Source: Trypanosoma brucei (lineage: Eukaryota). Taken from it: DNA of 64,000 bases. Positions 7,464 through 38,107 of this stretch are shown here, one piece after another. The stretch is from NCBI GenBank assembly GCA_000002445.1, contig CP000066.1, positions 160,001-224,000 of the forward strand. The letters are read 5' to 3'. A model generated the notes under the pieces. That model saw only the letters and a program-made list of their open reading frames with translations, did no database searches and was not told the origin of the DNA. Both the position numbers and the translations under genes were made by a program. Numbering within the stretch: the first letter of the stretch is position 1; each line of letters opens with the position of its first letter.

Positions 7464-7865
7464 CGACTGCAATTGCTTCACTATATATAAATAAATAAAT
7501 ATTTATATTAATATTTATATTTAAAAAAATTTTACTGCTCCACCGATGCTGAAGGCACAGACAGACAGACAGACACACACACACCAACTGATATAAGACG
7601 AGAAAAAACAAACAAAAAACAAACTAACAAACTAACAAATATAATTTTTAACGGTAAATGTAACTTACAGACTAAACTACCAGTCACTTGGCGATGTAAC
7701 GTCCTACCTTGATAACTCTCTCTCTCTCTCTCGAAAAAAAAAGGCTCGTCAAACGGTAGAGGGGAAGACAAAAAAAAAAGATAAACGCTAAAATAATAAT
7801 GATAATGATTGAACTTGCTTGATTTTTTTAAAAAAAAATGCAGAAAGAAAGAAAAGGTAAGTATA

Positions 7866-8294
7866 AAAATACAAATAAATGCACAGACAAAAAAAATAAT
7901 AAACAAACAAATGTATATTTAGTTAAGCAAAGAAGGTGCAGATACTGGATAAATTTTGCAACTCCTGTAGAATACAGTCTCCACTCCACTCATCACCACA
8001 AGGGGAGGAGAAAAAAAAATGGAGAAGAAAACACGCACTCGCATGCCGAATGACTCACAACATACACACATACTTTGCAACCCAATGTCTACTGGCCTTA
8101 ATAAGCACATTCACATCAGAAATATATCGGCACATCAGGAGGCAACAAATGTTTTGGATGGTGTAAAAGAAATATTTCCGCATGTTTGTCTAGTGGAATC
8201 ATCCACTTGTCAGCTCAGTCATATTATAAGTTTATTATTGCGTGTAACTTCTTCACACATTCATATTTTTTCCCCTTTCCTTTTAGAGTTGCCC
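7866..8294 (-). repeat. Dispersed intergenic repeat, copy 1 (full-length, about 429 bp)
   Basis: Near-identical to 35025-35459 over about 430 bp (a handful of substitutions, one 11-bp indel near the right end). Contains all of copy 2. Lies between the P450 and kinase genes. Confidence 0.9.
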
Positions 8295-8910
8295 TTTCGA
8301 AGGTGTTTTTTTTTTTTCACGATATCCGGTCAGTGCACGTTAGTGGTGTTGAAAGGTAAAATAAAAAGCATAAAACGCTTTCTTGTACGCAATCAACGCA
8401 ACAGCTATCATGATGATAACACGTGTTTCCACCGTAACTTGAACCTAAAGAGTTGCGAAAACCAAAAAAAAAAAAAGAAGGAGGAGGAACAATTAAAAAG
8501 CGGGAGTTGCAGTCTTTCACAGCGTAGACAAACGAATATGCACAAAAACAAACATTGTGCTAAACGTAAAAGGCAGTCAGTCACATTTAGGTGGAACACA
8601 AATATCGAAGCATATAAATAGATACTTAATGAACATCGTACAACCCCGAACAACGGTTGCAGTATTCTATGTCAGCTGCGCTAATCATGACAATAGCCTC
8701 CACGTACCAAAGAAGGAGCAAAGGTAAAAACAACAGAGAAAAGGGAGAAAGAAACAAATGAAGAAAGAAGAGGAAGACAAAAAAAGAAAAAGAAAAGAAA
8801 AGAAGAACGATGCCTCTGCGTGGGTGCCATCGCCTTACGAAAGTTCATGCAGCATTGCATATGTAAATATATGTATCTGTATATCAATTTATTTCTTGTG
8901 TGTTCTTTCT

Positions 8911-10662
8911 CTAACTGTTGGAACCTTGGTTGTGCTCCCGGTGCTTCGCTAACAATGCTTTGATAGATGGGGAAACCGCTTGGGACCCGACGGAAGGTCC
9001 TACGCTGGCGAGTGTAGCGGGTGAGTTGCCCTGCGGGTGTGCCTTACCGAGAGAATTGGTATAAGTTTTATTCTCCGACGACTGAAAAGACGAAAGTTTA
9101 TATCGTGTTGAGTTGAGAAGTGTTGCCACCATGCCACCTTCCATTGGTGGGGGTTTGGCAAAATCGACCCCGCTCTTGCGTTGACTACCGGATGATCCAC
9201 AATTGGTAATATCTTTCCCCGGAGTCGCATTGCTTTGAAGTGAAGTGGAGCCGTGCTGCTTCTGCTGAGGATGGAGGCCCAACGTCTTCAACTCCCCGGC
9301 AAAATCGTCTATAAGTCCGTCTAAGTCTAACTCATCATTGTTAGAAGCGGGAGGAGGTTGCGCAACCGTCCTAGAAGGGATTTCTTTGTTATTTGAAGGA
9401 GAAAACTTTCCTGGCTTTGCCTCCGGTGGGAGAGGAGACGTCTTCATATTTGCAAGGGTCGTTTTTACATTTGAACCAAACTTCGGCTGAACGTCGGGTT
9501 TTCGATCGGAGGATTCGTTACTGGGACTGTACGAGTTCTGCTGCGGTACCACCGGTGGACTATTCGATGGACCTCCCGCCTTCGGTACCGCAGTTGTGGC
9601 CCCAACAGGTGGGCGATCCCCTTTTGTATCGGAATTCGGAACAACTGCACCTGACGGGGCGCTTTGCGGTCCGCTAGTGTGTTTCTTCAGTGCCTCTGCC
9701 ATCTGTTTTGGAACATTCGTTGGAGCGAAATTCTCTTCATCAACCCCAACATTAAAGTACGGATGTTGTAAACACTGCTGAGCAGTCGGCCGCCTCTTTG
9801 GGTCGTAATTCAACATTTGCTTCATCAAGTCCATGGCATGCGGTGGTACATGGGGCGGCATGACACGCTCTAAGCCCACACCATTGATGGAAGGAAAATT
9901 GTAACGAATCTTCTTTGCAAGAACCATACCATTGGGCCACACGCTTTCATTGGGTGATCCCAAAACGGCCATTATTTTATGCAGTTGGTCCACCTCGTTG
10001 CTACCCGCAAAGAGCGGGCGGGTGGTTATCATTTCCGCTATTATACAACCCACCGCCCATATGTCTACGGGGGAGCTGTAACATCTGTCTTGCAAAAGTA
10101 ATTCCGGTGCTCGATACCACCGTGTTGAAACATAATCCGTGTAGGGCGGCCGCGCTCGTATTTCCTTAACGAGACCAAAGTCAGCAAGCTTAACTATTTC
10201 CTGTGCGCTAGTGGATGGGTCCTTTCGTACCAGTAAATTTTCCGGTTTCATGTCTCTATGAAAGTACCCAGCGCGGTGTAAATACGCGAGCGACTGCAAA
10301 ATTTGAAATGTATAACTTTTGATTTTGGGGTATGCTAACGCAGGACCACTGGTTCCGGAGCCATAGCTCTGCATCTGTTTGGCTCTCCGAATAACACCCA
10401 GCAAATCCCCATCCATGAATTCAAAAACAAAAAACAATTCATTTTTCTCCCGAATCACCTCCCTCATTTTCACAATGTTGGGGTGGCCGTGCACACGACG
10501 CACAACAACAACCTCCGGGAGTTTCATGCATTCATCCCAGCTGTAATACTTTTGTTTCATTTTTTTAATAGCAACGAACTGACCTGATGACTTGTGCAAT
10601 GCCTTCACTACACACCCGAAGGTTCCATCTCCTAACTGATTGAGAAGTTGGTAGTTCTCCAT
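8911..10662 (-). CDS. CMGC-group Ser/Thr protein kinase (MAPK/CDK/RCK-like) with TDY activation loop and a ~280-aa low-complexity C-terminal extension
   Basis: Glycine loop GDGTFGCV, VAIK, HRDMKPENLL, DFG, activation loop PPYTDYVSTRWYRAPE, CMGC insert region. ATG start verified. C-terminal half is S/P/Q/N-rich. The architecture (ERK/CDK-like domain plus autoregulatory-type tail) resembles what has been described for T. brucei ECK1. That identity is from memory and not verified. Confidence 0.9.
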   Translation of the reverse strand: MENYQLLNQLGDGTFGCVVKALHKSSGQFVAIKKMKQKYYSWDECMKLPEVVVVRRVHGHPNIVKMREVIREKNELFFVFEFMDGDLLGVIRRAKQMQSYGSGTSGPALAYPKIKSYTFQILQSLAYLHRAGYFHRDMKPENLLVRKDPSTSAQEIVKLADFGLVKEIRARPPYTDYVSTRWYRAPELLLQDRCYSSPVDIWAVGCIIAEMITTRPLFAGSNEVDQLHKIMAVLGSPNESVWPNGMVLAKKIRYNFPSINGVGLERVMPPHVPPHAMDLMKQMLNYDPKRRPTAQQCLQHPYFNVGVDEENFAPTNVPKQMAEALKKHTSGPQSAPSGAVVPNSDTKGDRPPVGATTAVPKAGGPSNSPPVVPQQNSYSPSNESSDRKPDVQPKFGSNVKTTLANMKTSPLPPEAKPGKFSPSNNKEIPSRTVAQPPPASNNDELDLDGLIDDFAGELKTLGLHPQQKQHGSTSLQSNATPGKDITNCGSSGSQRKSGVDFAKPPPMEGGMVATLLNSTRYKLSSFQSSENKTYTNSLGKAHPQGNSPATLASVGPSVGSQAVSPSIKALLAKHREHNQGSNS

Positions 10663-29299: not shown

Positions 29300-29805
29300 C
29301 CTGGCAGCAAATACACAAATCCCCTAATCCTTCCAGTTACTTACCGGAAGGGATATCAGAAGGTGCGAAATGGAAACAAAAATGTAAAGGAAAGTGAGGC
29401 ATGGAAAGACAAGGACGTTTAAACGAGGATCCAACGGGTGCAGCTTTCTCCTCACACCATACGCGGTTAGCGCCTCCTCCCCTTCCCCGTACAAAATCGA
29501 AAGAGATATGGGAAGACAACCAAACCGGTACGACCAAATGCCCAAAACATACGGACTCACAAGCACCCACTCAACAAAGATGTGCAACGGCCAACGCGCA
29601 AAGAACACCAAACAAACAGGAAAGAGAAGAATGATCATATCTCAAATGCACTCTCAGAAGAACAACACAGTCATTCTACTTGAGAGAAATTTGCAGTTTG
29701 GCGAATTGTGACGGCAAACGCCCGTAGAAACTGAAGTGGCACAAGTAACCTGCCTCGTGATCCGCCAAAACCGGAACGCATTTTGGGGTAATAAGTTACA
29801 CTTCA

Positions 29806-29829
29806 TCCACACACACACACACACACACC
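29806..29829. repeat. (CA)12 dinucleotide repeat abutting repeat copy 2
   Basis: cacacacacacacacacacacacc read directly. Confidence 0.9.
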
Positions 29830-29847
29830 AAAACAGTTTGTCCACCA

Positions 29848-30122
29848 TACAGTCTCCACTCCACTCATCACCACAAGAGGAGGGAAAAAATGGAGAAGAA
29901 AACACGCACTCGCATGCCGAATGACTCACAACATACACACACACTTTGCAACCCAATGTCTACTAGCCTTAATAAGCACATTCACATCAGAAATATATCG
30001 GCACATCAGGAGGCAACAAATGTTTTGGATGGTGTAAAAGGAATATTTCCGCATGTTTGTCTAGCGGGATCATCCACTTGTCAGCTCAGTCATATTATAA
30101 GTTTATTATTGCGTGTAACTTC
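29848..30122 (-). repeat. Dispersed intergenic repeat, copy 2 (truncated at both ends, about 275 bp), preceded by a (CA)n tract
   Basis: atacagtctccactccactcatcaccacaa...gcgtgtaacttc aligns to the internal part of copies 1 and 3 with few mismatches. Lies between the LRR-CCCH gene and the VIT gene. Confidence 0.9.
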
Positions 30123-30448
30123 CCGTCCACGTGGTGCCGCTTTGGTGGAGCAAGAAATTTTGTAAAAGGTATGTGTGGTCGAAGGGCGTATAAATTTTAA
30201 AAGAACAAAGGGAATACGCGGTACAGGGAAGAGGTCCATCCATCAACCCCCTCATCCCCTTTGCGGTGCCGCGCTTGGAAGAATCTCGCTTCTAGCGTTG
30301 GATAACGCTTTAAAGTTCTGTCGATGAGTAAAAGAACAATTACGTACTATGAGCAGGCTATATCGCTCCGGGAGCAAACATGCTGCTATACATCCCTGGA
30401 GAACGACCTTTCCGCTGGGGAAACTCCCGCCGTCCAAGTTTTCTACGT

Positions 30449-33728: not shown

Positions 33729-34910
33729 CTACTTTTTGACAGCCTTTTTGTGTCCGGACGACGACTTCCGCTGCAATACGCCAGGCAACGCTACGGCACC
33801 GCGGTTCCTCTTCGTTCCCGCAGTAGATGCCTCCGAATTCACCTGCTTTTGTGGCTTCGTTATGGTAAAAAATTGGTCCAAGCGACCTTGGGTTTTCTTC
33901 GTAAGTGCGTCACGAAGCCGCTGAATACCCTTCAAAACGCGTTCCTTACTGAACAACTTTTCGTCGACAAGAAACTTTATCAGTCCCTCTTCGTCCGGCT
34001 CACGGAACTGGATATCGATCTCCTCACCCGGTGTTACCTCTGGTTCCAAGAAGAAGTTCCGCGCATCCTTGTAGTTGAACTCCTCTGGGACAACGTACCT
34101 CGTTCCGTCAAGTGACTCGATAAATGCCTCTAAACTCCCATACTTCTTGATACCCTCCCAGGCTTTATGGGGTCCAATTCCTGAAATTCTGGGGACGTAA
34201 TCACAACCAAGAAGAATACATAAATCTATGAACTGCTGCATTGAAAAACCGGAGGCTTCCAATATCTCATCGAGATGATACTCGGCAATGGGCCGCTTCT
34301 TCGCTTCACCATACGTTAAATGCCGCAACATCACCCGGGACCCAAACGCCAGGGCATCCATATCCTCTGTTCCTACCGCCCATGCCTTATTCTTTTTCAC
34401 CAGCTCAGCGCACTGGGCTTCTGCCTCAGAGGGTGCTTGAACAACAGGAATGCCCATTAAACGAAGTAGTGTCTTCACCTCCTCCATCTGATCCCTTCCC
34501 ACACGAACCATTCGCTTGCTCATCTTTTCCATGGCCTCATCATCTCCCTCCTCCTTTGCCTTTTCAAACTCATGCTTTGCATCCTCTGCCCTCTGACGCC
34601 GACTCTCAAGTTCAGAAGCCTTAAGGGTGGGCGGCTTACCATCAAACACGTATATAGGACGAAGTCCTTCATCTATCATTCTTAATGTACGAAAAAAAAT
34701 TCCACTTAAATGAGACGTAACATCCCCAGCTTCATTGGTCAACTCAACGCTCTGACCCTCTTGAAAGCCTTTCATGGCGATGACGAACTGATATACGGCC
34801 ATGGAGGCATCGATTGCGATGCGTCGACCGAAATAAACTTTCAGCTCTTGTTCCTTAATGGCGCCAGGAGTTCTGTCGTACAGAAGCTTCGAAAGGCCAA
34901 GAACACCCAT
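33729..34910 (-). CDS. FEN1: Flap endonuclease 1 (FEN1)
   Basis: N-terminus MGVLGLSKLLYDRTPGAIKEQELKVYFGRRIAIDASMAVYQFVIAMKG closely matches human FEN1 [46 protein letters not shown]. I-domain with GIPVVQAPSEAEAQCA. H3TH region. Basic C-terminal tail (KKAVKK) typical of the PCNA-binding/NLS end. ATG verified. Confidence 0.9.
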   Translation of the reverse strand: MGVLGLSKLLYDRTPGAIKEQELKVYFGRRIAIDASMAVYQFVIAMKGFQEGQSVELTNEAGDVTSHLSGIFFRTLRMIDEGLRPIYVFDGKPPTLKASELESRRQRAEDAKHEFEKAKEEGDDEAMEKMSKRMVRVGRDQMEEVKTLLRLMGIPVVQAPSEAEAQCAELVKKNKAWAVGTEDMDALAFGSRVMLRHLTYGEAKKRPIAEYHLDEILEASGFSMQQFIDLCILLGCDYVPRISGIGPHKAWEGIKKYGSLEAFIESLDGTRYVVPEEFNYKDARNFFLEPEVTPGEEIDIQFREPDEEGLIKFLVDEKLFSKERVLKGIQRLRDALTKKTQGRLDQFFTITKPQKQVNSEASTAGTKRNRGAVALPGVLQRKSSSGHKKAVKK

Positions 34911-35024
34911 TATCCTCGCCGGACTCGAGAATCAACGAAACACTTTCCGGAAAGAATTGTGAGGAAAGGCAGTAGCAAAAAGTGTGACATTTACTATGCA
35001 CAGCAGTAGAACGAGTTCGGGTTG

Positions 35025-35459
35025 AAAATACAAATAAATGCACAGACAAAAAAAATAATAAACAAACAAATGTATATTTAGTTAAGCAAAGAAGGTGCAG
35101 ATACTGGATAATTTTGCAACTCCTGTAGAATACAGTCTCCACTCCACTCATCACTACAAGGGGAGAAAAAAAATGGAGAAGAAAACACGCACTCGCATGC
35201 CGAATGACTCACAACATACACACATACTTTGCAACCCAATGTCTACTGGCCTTAATAAGCACATTCACATCAGAAATATATCGGCACATCAGGAGGCAAC
35301 AAATGTTTTGGATGGTGTAAAAGAAATATTTCCTCATGTTTGTCTAGTGGAATCATCCTCTTGTCAGCTCAGTCATATTATAAGTTTATTATTGCGTGTA
35401 ACTTCTTCACACATTCATATTTTTCCCCCTTTCCTTTTGGAAGTGCTTTAGAGTTGACC
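35025..35459 (-). repeat. Dispersed intergenic repeat, copy 3 (full-length, about 435 bp)
   Basis: Occupies 435 of the 574 bp between the stop of the 35485-36651 gene and the FEN1 start codon. Same orientation as copies 1 and 2. Confidence 0.9.
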
Positions 35460-35484
35460 GATGCTGCGTCGTCTCCTCTCTTCC

Positions 35485-36651
35485 TTAAGGGGTTTGCAAC
35501 AACCAAGATAGCACTCCTATCGCGCATGAAATCAAAACCAATACGGCTACGTGAAGCGAATAGTCACCCTTATTCCTCCGTCCGTCACCGTCAGTGACGT
35601 TTCCAGGGCCAGCAGCTGCTAGCAGCTGTTGCTCACCGCTAGTTTTATCCACCGACATTTTCGTTGAGGTGAAATGAGGCTCTAGAAGAACTCGAGACGA
35701 TGATAGTCTCTCCCCTGCACCGTCCTCAATCAACTCCCTCACTTGTCTCCACTGCTCCCGAGTGTGACCGGTCGCATCGCCAGTAGTGTGAATATATGCC
35801 CATTGGTAAATCAATGCAGGATTCCTCAGAGAACAAACACGAAGAATCCTTACCTGTGGTTGCTCACCAATTTTATCAATAAAACTAACGATGCTACGGT
35901 AAATATCTAACCCACAGGTATGCTGTGGGGCGAATGTTACATGTACGCAAATCAGCTCATCGTCCAAGTCTCTCTTTGCACCCAACTGCACAGCGTAAAT
36001 ATCCTTATATAGGTTCCAAATGTCACAATCCGCAAGCAAACGGCTACTGCGCAAGTCAACTATAGGGGAACTCGTCGTCGCACGGCCCCTTGCCCTTAGA
36101 ACAAGTGGCAATTTATCTAGTGGAGACACCAAATAACAGGGTAACGACACGAACGTTATTTCCGCTGTTGTAACCTTAAGTTCTACCCTACCACCAGGTT
36201 GAAGCAACTCGCATTTCTTCACCGCGCTATCTCCCCATATCACTGCGAAGAGTAAATTCACGCGAGGATTTTCTTTCAACAAACTTCGCAACTGAATAGT
36301 TGAGTATCCGCCGGTGTCTGAAAGCATAACGCCTAAAAAAAGAACACCACAGGGTAAAATCTGTTCAAGACAGTCTACCTGTTCAGAGATGACCTCAAGA
36401 TCCAGGCAAGGAATAGCGTCAAAGACGGTGCATACAGCATGAGCGTTGCTCGAGCCGTTCCTACAGACGCTACGCTGTCCCACCAAAATGGAGGGATTAA
36501 ACGACTCGCCAGTGGGAAGGGCACTCGGTGGAAGCACCACAGAAACATTCATGCCCCCAACAAACACCCTAGTAAAGACTTCTTTTGCTTCGTTGGTTTG
36601 GACAGGTAGAGAAGTGAGAAATTCAGTGGCGCCAACTAACCAGGCAAACAT
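35485..36651 (-). CDS. Hypothetical protein with N-terminal signal peptide and C-terminal TM helix (type I membrane topology predicted)
   Basis: Caller start at 36657 is GTG; first ATG at 36651 (MFAWLVGATEFLTSLPV...). C-terminal YSLHVAVLVLISCAIGVLSWLL is hydrophobic. No catalytic motif recognised. Confidence 0.55.
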   Translation of the reverse strand: MFAWLVGATEFLTSLPVQTNEAKEVFTRVFVGGMNVSVVLPPSALPTGESFNPSILVGQRSVCRNGSSNAHAVCTVFDAIPCLDLEVISEQVDCLEQILPCGVLFLGVMLSDTGGYSTIQLRSLLKENPRVNLLFAVIWGDSAVKKCELLQPGGRVELKVTTAEITFVSLPCYLVSPLDKLPLVLRARGRATTSSPIVDLRSSRLLADCDIWNLYKDIYAVQLGAKRDLDDELICVHVTFAPQHTCGLDIYRSIVSFIDKIGEQPQVRILRVCSLRNPALIYQWAYIHTTGDATGHTREQWRQVRELIEDGAGERLSSSRVLLEPHFTSTKMSVDKTSGEQQLLAAAGPGNVTDGDGRRNKGDYSLHVAVLVLISCAIGVLSWLLQTP

Positions 36652-38107
36652 GCACACTACCTTGTGATCGTCAGCAATGCGGTGACTTCCATGGGGTTAA
36701 AGTTGGTTACAGTTGCACCACAAGCTATTAAGGCAACGAGCGGTAGCCTTTAAATGAATAAAAACAATGATCTCAACACACAGCCGAAGTACTTGGCAGC
36801 ACTCCAGGTAGAATGGTTACTTCGCCACAACTTCATTCGATGCACATATTTCTAAGTGTATAGACAGTTCTTTCCTCTCTTTTCCCCTCCCAGAGTGGGT
36901 GGAGTGTGCTGTTACAGCTCCAGCCACTTTCCTACACCCGCCATTATACAGTGGCCATACAAGCCATTCGCTGAAGCGGGTCGCTTTCAAAATGTGGACC
37001 GCGGGAGAATGCAATGACGGTCCGTCACAAATAATGAAGGTCGCAACAAATGATAATAATAAAAATAATAGACGGGTACTGCGGAAGAATACAAAAATAG
37101 CACTAAAAGAACAGAGGGTTGCACACAGAGGCTAAAGTAACGACCAAGGCGGGTCAAACAAATGGGAAGAGTAACGGGTGAACGAGCAACTTACATACAT
37201 TTGCCACCTGACTAATATGAAGGACTAATGTAAGTAGATTCACTTTCTGTGGAAAGTACTTGCGATCTTCGGTGCCCTTTAACTCCTGTCCTACTACTGG
37301 AGTTTGGTACAAACTTGGGGTTATTTACTTCTTTGTTTGTTCTTTTTTTTTTTAATATGATCACTAACACAAAAGCAGGAAACGGCATGGATATCGAACA
37401 TCGTACATTTACAAGATGATTTTTACTATTAGCATACGGGTCGTTCTGTGTTACCCAATGCAACAACTTTTCTCGTTGCATGACCCAATTTCCCCAACTT
37501 ACCCATTCCTCTTTCGCACCCTAGGCATCGTGTCCGTGACACACAGCAATAACCACCACCTTTTCTCCGGACTGAGTTAAAGCAAAAAATAATTATGACA
37601 GCAAAACCCATTTTTTTTTTTTACAAATAATCACATATGATGCAGGGGATAGAATTAGCTAAACCCCCTTTAAAAAAAAAAATAGCATTAAAAAAAACTG
37701 TCGGCCAACACCTGGAAACATGAAGAACATGGGAATACAGTGCCCATACGTATTTAGAAAAGTTATTGAAGAACAACCTTCTGTTGCTTAACGATACCAA
37801 TATCATGTACAAAAAATAAAATAAGCAAATACAATTGCTGAGTATAGGGATAACACTTACGTTGACAATGTGCGCTAATGCCGCCTTTCCGAATTTAAGA
37901 GATTGCTGTGATTACATCGCCTATACGTTGGCTGTCGCCTCGCACGTCCGAACAAGCTTCAGCAAGAAAAGAAAGTTCTCCTGTACTCCACCTTGCAATC
38001 AACCTCCCCATCAGTCATTCACAGCGATAAGTGAATTACAGTTTTTTCCCCCGTGTCTTGACTTTTTCCATATTGAATCGACGACAGTCGAAGGGAACCA
38101 ACAATGG

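What the first reader, a model, noticed from the sequence alone, without database searches (positions are those of the whole stretch)
34911..35484. The FEN1 upstream spacer is built almost entirely from repeat copy 3
Only 574 bp separate the stop of the upstream gene (35485) from the FEN1 ATG (34910). 435 bp of that is the dispersed repeat. The upstream gene's 3' UTR and polyadenylation site are therefore most likely inside the repeat. FEN1's polypyrimidine tract and splice-acceptor dinucleotide are probably there too. If so, a repeat insertion has taken over mRNA processing for two unrelated genes, one of them an essential replication nuclease.
Basis: partly seen in the sequence, partly recalled or inferred. 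Interest (0 to 1): 0.5.

Follow-up and report, generated by a model that had tools for sequence, protein, structure and literature searches.

The report
Low-copy repeat fills FEN1 upstream spacer
About three quarters of the 574-bp gap upstream of the Trypanosoma brucei FEN1 gene is one copy of a three-copy intergenic repeat, which forms the upstream gene's 3' UTR, but published mapping puts FEN1's splice acceptor outside the repeat, so this is a fairly ordinary case.

Summary
The window is T. brucei chromosome 3, 160001-224000. Tb927.3.840 stops at 35485 and FEN1 (Tb927.3.830) starts at 34910, leaving a 574-bp spacer. Positions 35025-35459 are one of three same-orientation copies of a repeat (97.6% identical to copy 1 over 422 bp; 96% to a 276-bp core in copy 2).

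Kolev et al. 2010 map one tight FEN1 spliced-leader site at window 34942 (5' UTR 32 nt). The acceptor AG (34944-34943) therefore lies 81 nt outside the repeat. A 31-nt pyrimidine-rich tract in unique sequence sits 16 nt upstream of that AG and is the likelier functional tract. An unused AG at 34995 separates it from the repeat's U-rich tail.

The upstream gene's 3' UTR must run into the repeat. Its poly(A) site is probably inside the repeat or at its edge, but this is inferred; I found no direct data.

"Insertion" is not shown. Without the repeat the spacer would be 139 bp, shorter than any intergenic region compared, so copy 3 may be the donor or a replacement. The copies show gene conversion. 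Copy 1 coincides with the published transcript Tb3.NT.9. I found no transposon, structured-RNA or coding signature. Interest is low.

The parts
35485..36657 (-). Upstream gene Tb927.3.840 (hypothetical, kinetoplastid-specific). Annotated as 35485-36651; the likely true start is the ATG at 36552.
   Evidence: ORF. Vasquez 2014 supplement gives chr3:195485-196651(-). The mapped splice site at 36587 lies inside the annotated ORF. Orthologues are 355-362 aa.
34911..35484 (-). The 574-bp intergenic spacer between Tb927.3.840 and FEN1.
35025..35459 (-). Repeat copy 3 (412-435 bp). It forms nearly all of the Tb927.3.840 3' UTR.
35131..35406 (-). The 276-bp core shared by all three copies.
35158..35185 (-). 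Internal 28-nt polypyrimidine tract within the repeat core. Its length varies between copies and strains. It is a candidate cryptic processing signal.
   Evidence: inference only
35024..35076 (-). U-rich tail at the end of the repeat nearest FEN1. It is the longest pyrimidine stretch within 200 nt of the FEN1 splice site and ends 81 nt from that site.
34959..34989 (-). Proximal 31-nt pyrimidine-rich tract in unique sequence, 16 nt upstream of the acceptor. It is the likelier functional tract for FEN1.
   Evidence: The unused AG at 34995-34994 lies upstream of it.
34943..34944 (-). FEN1 trans-splice acceptor AG.
   Evidence: Kolev 2010 Table S12 gives the predominant site at 194942. The AG is verified in the sequence.
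34911..34942 (-). FEN1 5' UTR, 32 nt.
33729..34910 (-). FEN1 coding sequence (Tb927.3.830), 393 aa.
7866..8296 (-). Repeat copy 1. It lies between the kinase Tb927.3.690 and the P450 Tb927.3.680, inside the published transcript Tb3.NT.9 (8444->7860).
29847..30122 (-). Repeat copy 2 (core only), between the VIT1-family gene Tb927.3.800 and Tb927.3.790.

Best explanation
The spacer is an ordinary trypanosome intercistronic region whose central 412-435 bp are one copy of a low-copy repeat. I found the repeat only in the T. brucei group, and all three copies lie within 27 kb of one polycistronic unit.

Shown: the repeat begins 25-48 nt after the Tb927.3.840 stop codon, so it makes up that mRNA's 3' UTR. 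FEN1 mRNA is trans-spliced at a single AG 81 nt downstream of the repeat, giving a 32-nt 5' UTR.

Inferred: the pyrimidine tract that drives this splice is the 31-nt tract in unique sequence, 16 nt from the AG. The coupled poly(A) site of Tb927.3.840 falls in the last ~100 nt of the repeat or just past its end. The repeat's U-rich tail is at most an auxiliary element.

The repeat is not a recognisable mobile element, structured RNA or coding sequence. Gene conversion keeps its copies similar. Because the spacer without the repeat would be only 139 bp, copy 3 is more likely the original spacer (the donor), or a conversion or replacement product, than a simple insertion.
For: Coordinates. The window offset to Tb927_03_v4 is exactly 160000. 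Three published splice sites (34942, 7817, 29339) are each preceded by AG, and the Tb927.3.840 CDS coordinates match.

FEN1 splice site. Predominant site 194942, 5' UTR 32 nt, dispersion 0.64.

Processing statistics and tracts. Pyrimidine-tract and poly(A) distance statistics are; the tract calculation is.

Repeat identity and boundaries.

The same three-copy arrangement occurs in T. b. gambiense and T. equiperdum.

Gene conversion. A deletion specific to T. equiperdum is present in both its copy 1 and copy 2. T. b. gambiense copy 1 carries copy-2 states where the window's copy 1 carries copy-3 states.

Other species. There are no intra-locus repeats in the syntenic 21 kb of T. vivax, T. cruzi or T. 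theileri and no similarity to the repeat there. Orthologous spacers are 587, 424 and 333 bp, against 574 bp here.

Negative searches. No Rfam hit. Fold z-score -0.23. No homologue of the longest ORF among 5.8 billion and 1.84 billion proteins. No terminal inverted repeats or target-site duplications.
Against: No poly(A) site for Tb927.3.840 could be retrieved. It is not in the stored part of Kolev Table S13, and other supplements lacked it.

At paralogous copy 1, the annotated 3' end of Tb3.NT.9 (7860) lies 6 nt beyond the repeat and only 43 nt from the next splice site. The equivalent site at copy 3 could therefore fall just outside the repeat.

By the published operational definition, the longest pyrimidine stretch upstream of FEN1 is inside the repeat.

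The splice data come from procyclic cells of another strain. Reads within a 97%-identical repeat map ambiguously.

The genome-wide copy number is unknown. Whether copy 3 is donor or recipient rests only on spacer-length arithmetic.
Confidence: 0.72

Rival explanations
1. One reading: an inserted repeat supplies both the upstream gene's poly(A) site and FEN1's pyrimidine tract and acceptor AG.
For: The repeat fills 72-76% of the spacer. Its U-rich tail is the longest pyrimidine stretch within 200 nt of the splice site. The expected poly(A) position falls in the repeat.
Against: The acceptor AG is mapped 81 nt outside the repeat with dispersion 0.64. The first AG after the U-rich tail (34995) is not used, and a separate tract lies 16 nt from the AG that is used. 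Removing the repeat leaves a 139-bp spacer, shorter than any of 40 intergenic regions in four species. That argues against a simple insertion.
Confidence: 0.1
2. The unit is a non-autonomous mobile element, such as a T. brucei counterpart of the ~435-bp T. cruzi SIRE derived from VIPER ends, that has landed in three spacers.
For: SIRE as described is about 185+30+220 bp, the same length as this unit. A review table lists SIRE and VIPER among T. brucei elements. All three copies are intergenic and share one orientation.
Against: There are no target-site duplications, terminal repeats or A-rich tail. Copy 2 is a 276-bp internal piece with abrupt ends. There is no similarity in 42 kb of T. cruzi sequence. 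The copies are 96-98% identical and clustered within 27 kb, unlike an extinct, degenerate family. I could obtain no reference SIRE or VIPER sequence, so homology was not tested.
Confidence: 0.1
3. The unit is a small gene family, either a non-coding RNA or a micro-protein, of which Tb3.NT.9 is the expressed member. Copies 2 and 3 would then be embedded paralogues.
For: Tb3.NT.9 is a separately trans-spliced, polyadenylated 584-nt transcript at 1.72 RNAs per cell that covers copy 1. Short ORFs of 28 and 42 aa on the transcribed strand are intact in all copies.
Against: The folding energy is no better than shuffled sequence (z=-0.23). There is no Rfam family. ORF preservation is expected at 96-98% identity, and differences between copies are mostly non-synonymous in the long antisense ORF. 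That ORF has no homologue. No separate splice site is annotated at copies 2 or 3.
Confidence: 0.08
4. The unit is a selected 3'-UTR regulatory module that co-regulates the mRNAs carrying it, with its similarity maintained by selection rather than by recent duplication.
For: Similarity is high across copies and across three subspecies. It sits in or next to the 3' UTRs of Tb927.3.840, Tb927.3.800 and Tb3.NT.9.
Against: The mosaic sharing of derived states between paralogues points to gene conversion, which explains the similarity without selection. No expression data linking the three host transcripts were found.
Confidence: 0.1

Closest known systems
T. cruzi SIRE (short interspersed repetitive element, built from VIPER ends)
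   Same: It is a repeat of about 435 bp found in trypanosome intergenic regions and incorporated into UTRs (for structure and length). From my own recollection of Vazquez et al. 1994, a SIRE copy supplies a trans-splice acceptor for some P2-beta genes.
   Different: Here the mapped acceptor lies outside the repeat. Only three clustered copies were seen. There are no defined element ends, and no sequence similarity was detected in the T. cruzi loci examined. Homology to VIPER was not testable.
Leishmania SIDER1/SIDER2 and T. brucei RIME (truncated ingi/L1Tc-type retroposons found in UTRs)
   Same: They are short, dispersed, non-coding units that reside mainly in 3' UTRs and become part of mRNAs (PMC2323293, listed; not read in detail).
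   Different: No A-rich 3' tail or target-site duplication. The end nearest FEN1 on the transcribed strand is U-rich. The 79-bp retroposon signature was not tested against a reference sequence. The copy number is apparently tiny.
Ordinary trypanosome intercistronic region with coupled trans-splicing and polyadenylation
   Same: There is an AG acceptor preceded by a pyrimidine tract, and the upstream poly(A) site is expected about 142 nt upstream. Spacer length is typical of orthologous loci.
   Different: Most of the region is duplicated at two other spacers of the same transcription unit, and the copies exchange sequence by gene conversion.
Kolev et al. 2010 'novel transcripts' (Tb3.NT.9)
   Same: Copy 1 of the repeat plus 150 nt of unique leader corresponds to Tb3.NT.9, chr3 168444->167860.
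   Different: At copy 3 no separate transcript is annotated. There the same sequence serves as the 3' UTR of a protein-coding gene.

Membership tests
FEN1 / XPG-Rad2 nuclease (the downstream gene) | XPG_N and XPG_I domains, and orthology to annotated FEN-1 | tested here: met
   Pfam XPG_N 7e-24 and XPG_I 3e-31. 100% identical to T. b. gambiense FEN-1 and 75-81% identical to other Trypanosoma FEN1 proteins.
Trypanosome trans-splice acceptor region | AG dinucleotide immediately upstream of the mapped spliced-leader addition site | tested here: met
   The site at 34942 (Kolev Table S12) is preceded by AG at 34944-34943. It lies outside the repeat.
Trypanosome trans-splice acceptor region | Pyrimidine tract within 200 nt upstream of the acceptor | tested here: met
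   There are two candidates: a unique-sequence tract at 34989-34959 (31 nt, 16 nt from the site) and the repeat tail at 35076-35024 (53 nt, 81 nt from the site). Which one functions is inferred, not shown.
Trypanosome coupled polyadenylation | Mapped poly(A) site of the upstream gene about 120-180 nt upstream of the splice site | not testable with these tools
   There is no entry for Tb927.3.840 in the stored parts of Kolev Tables S5 and S13 or in other supplements. The position is predicted only.
SIRE / VIPER-derived element | Sequence homology to the VIPER 5' and 3' ends | not testable with these tools
   No reference sequence was obtainable; PMC15765 is not held. There is no hit in T. cruzi loci L008 and L009, but it is unknown whether those loci contain a SIRE.
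   The FEN1 and P450 acceptor AGs lie 81 and 47 nt beyond the repeat ends.
Non-LTR retroposon derivative (RIME / SIDER / NARTc type) | A-rich 3' tail and flanking target-site duplication | tested here: not met
   The flanks of copies 1 and 3 share no duplication, and neither strand ends in an A-run.
MITE / DNA transposon | Terminal inverted repeats and target-site duplication | tested here: not met
   Only inverted matches of 10 nt, internal to the repeat, were found in copy 3.
snoRNA or other structured RNA | Match to a curated RNA family, or thermodynamic structure beyond chance | tested here: not met
   Rfam at gathering threshold gives nothing in 64 kb. The best sub-threshold hits have E 0.8-1.4. 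No tRNA was found. Fold z-score -0.23.
Protein-coding gene | An ORF with detectable homologues | tested here: not met
   The 92-aa antisense ORF has no hit in the 5.8-billion-protein word-index search or in the 1.84-billion-protein HMMER search.

The most novel reading that the evidence does not exclude
The 435-bp unit is a 'processing/3'-UTR cassette' found only in the T. brucei group. It would spread between spacers of one transcription unit by ectopic gene conversion, carrying an internal pyrimidine tract and a U-rich tail. It would thereby set poly(A) site choice, and possibly regulation, for unrelated genes. At copy 1 it would even create an orphan trans-spliced transcript (Tb3.NT.9). This would be a SIRE/SIDER-like exaptation arising without transposition.
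Probability: 0.15. Interest if true: 0.45.

Novelty: new member of a known kind. Interest (0 to 1): 0.2.

Why it matters
If the repeat really set the poly(A) sites of unrelated genes, it would be a small T. brucei example of repeats shaping post-transcriptional gene expression, as SIDER does in Leishmania and SIRE does in T. cruzi. As the evidence stands, FEN1's own splice site is independent of the repeat.

The practical consequences are modest:
- Short reads in the Tb927.3.840 3' UTR, in Tb3.NT.9 and downstream of Tb927.3.800 map ambiguously.
- Tb3.NT.9 may be partly a mapping shadow of other copies.
- Targeting constructs or RNAi fragments that use this spacer would have three genomic targets.

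Tried and rejected
RNA genes. Rfam over the whole window and a sensitive scan of the spacer gave nothing credible. There are no tRNAs. The core folds no better than shuffled sequence. A C-box-like GTGATGA at about 35150 has no D box or terminal stem and lies partly outside the conserved core, so I rejected a snoRNA.

Coding potential. The longest ORF (92 aa, antisense) has no homologues. I had also hoped that search would reveal other genomic copies through called ORFs; it did not.

Mobile element. No terminal inverted repeats, target-site duplications or A-tail.

Literature. Six 20-21-mers from the repeat appear in no paper. Tb927.3.830 appears in no main text.

Poly(A) site of Tb927.3.840. 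I searched the supplements of Nilsson 2010, Siegel 2010 (none held), Kolev 2010, Vasquez 2014, Waithaka 2022 and Mulindwa 2018. Only CDS coordinates and expression values were found.

Contigs for Tb927.3.840. Two protein versions are not on record.

T. congolense, the most useful outgroup. Its FEN1 is in the protein database but has no contig. Its 40-aa annotated N-terminal extension shows no resemblance to the translated T. brucei upstream region.

Cross-species alignment of the spacer. There is no similarity, but the control shows that no intergenic region of this locus aligns at these distances, so the test is uninformative.

Full report
WHAT IS THERE

The minus strand of the window carries a 390-codon ORF ending at 35485 and a 393-codon ORF at 33729..34910. 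The latter has XPG_N and XPG_I domains. It is 100% identical to the annotated FEN-1 of T. brucei gambiense and 75-81% identical to FEN1 of other trypanosomes.

The window is about 99% identical to T. b. gambiense chromosome 3 and to T. equiperdum. Published coordinates show that it is T. brucei TREU927 chromosome 3, 160001-224000. Three spliced-leader sites from Kolev et al. 2010 fall on positions preceded by AG once 160000 is subtracted. The CDS of Tb927.3.840 given by Vasquez et al. 2014 (195485-196651, minus strand) matches the upstream ORF. FEN1 is Tb927.3.830.

THE REPEAT IS REAL

BLAST of the spacer against the window finds 7866-8287 (97.6% over 422 bp) and 29847-30122 (96.0% over 276 bp). 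The repeat finder and a three-way alignment agree.

On the transcribed strand, copy 3 ends sharply at 35025. It begins at 35436, or at about 35459 if a 10-nt match across an 11-nt indel is included. That makes it 412-435 bp, or 72-76% of the spacer. Copy 2 holds only a 276-bp internal core.

All copies are intergenic, share one orientation, and lie in the single minus-strand transcription unit Tb927.3.860 to Tb927.3.600 (Table S14). A profile built from nine copies finds nothing further in the window.

WHERE THE PROCESSING SITES ARE

Kolev et al. 2010, Table S12, list for Tb927.3.830 an averaged splice site of 194941, a predominant site of 194942, a 5' UTR of 32 nt and a dispersion of 0.64.

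In the window this is position 34942. The preceding dinucleotide, at 34944-34943, is AG, and exactly 32 nt separate it from the ATG. The acceptor therefore lies 81 nt beyond the repeat.

The pyrimidine tract is less clear-cut. I applied Kolev's operational rule: the longest pyrimidine stretch interrupted by single purines within 200 nt. The longest stretch is the repeat's 53-nt U-rich tail (35076-35024), which ends 81 nt from the site. The second is a 31-nt tract in unique sequence (34989-34959), which ends 16 nt from the site.

An AG at 34995-34994 lies between the two tracts and would be the first AG downstream of the repeat tail. A dispersion of 0.64 means it is essentially unused. Published tracts start a median of 43 nt from the site. 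I therefore infer that the proximal, unique tract is the functional one (about 70%).

At copy 1 the same logic holds. The P450 gene (Tb927.3.680) is spliced at 7817, after a tract in unique sequence at 7857-7830. The 3' end of the transcript covering the repeat (7860) lies between the repeat tail and that tract.

For the upstream gene I found no mapped poly(A) site. It is absent from the stored parts of Kolev Tables S5 and S13 and from five other supplements. Two things can still be said.

- The repeat starts 25-48 nt after the stop codon, so essentially any 3' UTR is made of repeat sequence.
- The published distance from a splice site to the upstream poly(A) site has a median of 142 nt and an interquartile range of 123-178. 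That predicts roughly 35065-35120, inside the repeat. A site outside the repeat would need a distance of 82 nt or less.

One caution applies. At copy 1 the distal 3' end lies 43 nt from the next splice site and 6 nt outside the repeat. I therefore put 'poly(A) site inside the repeat' at about 0.7.

The repeat core also contains a 28-32-nt pyrimidine tract (35185-35158). It could direct more proximal poly(A) sites. The large poly(A) dispersion of Tb3.NT.9 (232 nt, averaged site 8128) is compatible with that, but this is conjecture.

WHAT THE REPEAT IS

Copy 1 coincides with a published 'novel transcript', Tb3.NT.9. This transcript runs chr3 168444->167860 on the minus strand, is 584 nt long and is present at 1.72 RNAs per cell. 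Its splice site at 8444 lies in unique sequence, and the repeat fills the rest. The same sequence is thus an orphan mini-cistron at one locus and a 3' UTR at another.

Nothing marks it as a known element class:
- No Rfam family and no tRNA.
- Fold z-score -0.23.
- No terminal inverted repeats, target-site duplications or A-tail.
- The longest ORF (92 aa, antisense) has no homologue in two very large protein searches.
- Short sense ORFs are intact in all copies, but that is expected at 96-98% identity.

Comparing the three copies in TREU927, T. b. gambiense and T. equiperdum shows mosaic patterns. A one-base deletion specific to T. equiperdum is present in both its copy 1 and its copy 2. T. b. 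gambiense copy 1 carries copy-2 states at two sites where TREU927 copy 1 carries copy-3 states. T. b. gambiense copies 1 and 2 differ at 2 of 281 core positions, against 7 of 275 in TREU927.

This is the signature of ectopic gene conversion. The counts are small. Even so, they mean that the high similarity between copies does not date the duplication.

INSERTION OR NOT

The syntenic 21-kb regions of T. vivax, T. cruzi and T. theileri keep the same gene order. They contain no intra-locus repeat of 80 nt or more and nothing resembling the unit. Among the species I could compare, the duplicated state is therefore found only in the T. brucei group.

As a control, none of the 11 T. brucei intergenic regions in this locus aligns to any of those species.

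Spacer lengths are roughly conserved. The Tb927.3.840-to-FEN1 spacer is 576, 587, 424 and 333 bp in the four species (T. brucei measured in the T. b. gambiense locus; 574 bp in the window). Subtracting the repeat leaves 139 bp, shorter than any intergenic region in the four loci (minimum 232 bp).

A simple insertion is therefore unlikely. Copy 3 is either the original spacer, and so the donor, or the product of replacement by conversion. By contrast, the spacer holding copy 2 (1152 bp) minus 276 bp is close to the T. vivax length (895 bp), which fits an insertion there. This is suggestive only. T. congolense would be decisive, but no contig was available.

COMPARISON WITH KNOWN SYSTEMS

Leishmania SIDER elements in 3' UTRs are another precedent (PMC2323293, listed).

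A review table lists SIRE and VIPER among T. brucei elements, and the length coincidence is striking. However, I could not obtain a reference sequence. The defining functional property, supplying the acceptor that is used, was tested and is not met here. The structural marks of retroposons and of MITEs are also absent. I therefore do not file the unit under any of these families. In function it resembles an ordinary 3' UTR and intercistronic sequence that has been duplicated.

VERDICT

The finding is a low-copy intergenic repeat with gene conversion, and one copy is already catalogued as a novel transcript. Interest is low (0.2).

Noticed in passing
window 7860-8444 (- strand): The published 'novel transcript' Tb3.NT.9 (Kolev 2010, 584 nt, 1.72 RNAs per cell) is essentially repeat copy 1 plus 150 nt of unique leader. 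Because the copies are 96-98% identical, part of its read support could come from the 3' UTRs that contain copies 2 and 3.
   Followed up: partly
window 35131-35406, 7972-8250, 29847-30122; L002, L011, L001, L010: Derived states are shared between paralogous copies within T. b. gambiense and within T. equiperdum. One example is an identical 1-nt deletion in T. equiperdum copies 1 and 2. This indicates ectopic gene conversion between spacers 5-27 kb apart.
   Followed up: partly
window 36552-36657 (- strand): The mapped spliced-leader site of Tb927.3.840 (36587; averaged 36578) lies inside the annotated ORF. The next in-frame ATG, at 36552, gives 355 aa, matching the T. cruzi (355), T. theileri (361) and T. 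vivax (362) orthologues. The annotated start is therefore probably about 33 codons too far upstream.
   Followed up: partly
L003 1-34 and L004 1 (Logan contigs ERR7929164, ERR7929161): Both contigs lose identity to the genome exactly at the G of the FEN1 acceptor AG. L004 starts there. L003 carries 33 nt (GATTGTTGGCTTCCATGTCGTGTTCTTCTTATT) that are neither the spliced leader nor anything in the window or loci. This may be an assembly branch at the splice junction in RNA-derived data; the origin of the 33 nt is unexplained.
   Followed up: partly
window 29808-29828: A (CA)10.5 microsatellite lies 19 nt beyond the end of repeat copy 2 that is nearer the downstream gene.
   Followed up: no
window 29300-30448; L005 16836-18299; L009 15442-16833: T. 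cruzi and T. theileri have an extra 463-487-aa gene between the VIT1-family gene and the next gene. T. brucei and T. vivax lack it. Repeat copy 2 sits in that spacer.
   Followed up: no
window 8578-8911 and 7860-8444: The kinase Tb927.3.690 is listed by Kolev (Table S3) as having an alternative 3' UTR, with its main transcript end at 8578. The Tb3.NT.9 / repeat copy 1 region may be the extended alternative 3' UTR of this kinase rather than an independent gene.
   Followed up: no
window 35158-35185, 8000-8031, 29875-29902: The internal T/C tract of the repeat varies in length between copies and between subspecies (5-nt indels). In TREU927, copy 3 alone has TAG where all other copies have TGG immediately downstream of the tract, which creates a potential cryptic acceptor AG near 35154.
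   Followed up: no
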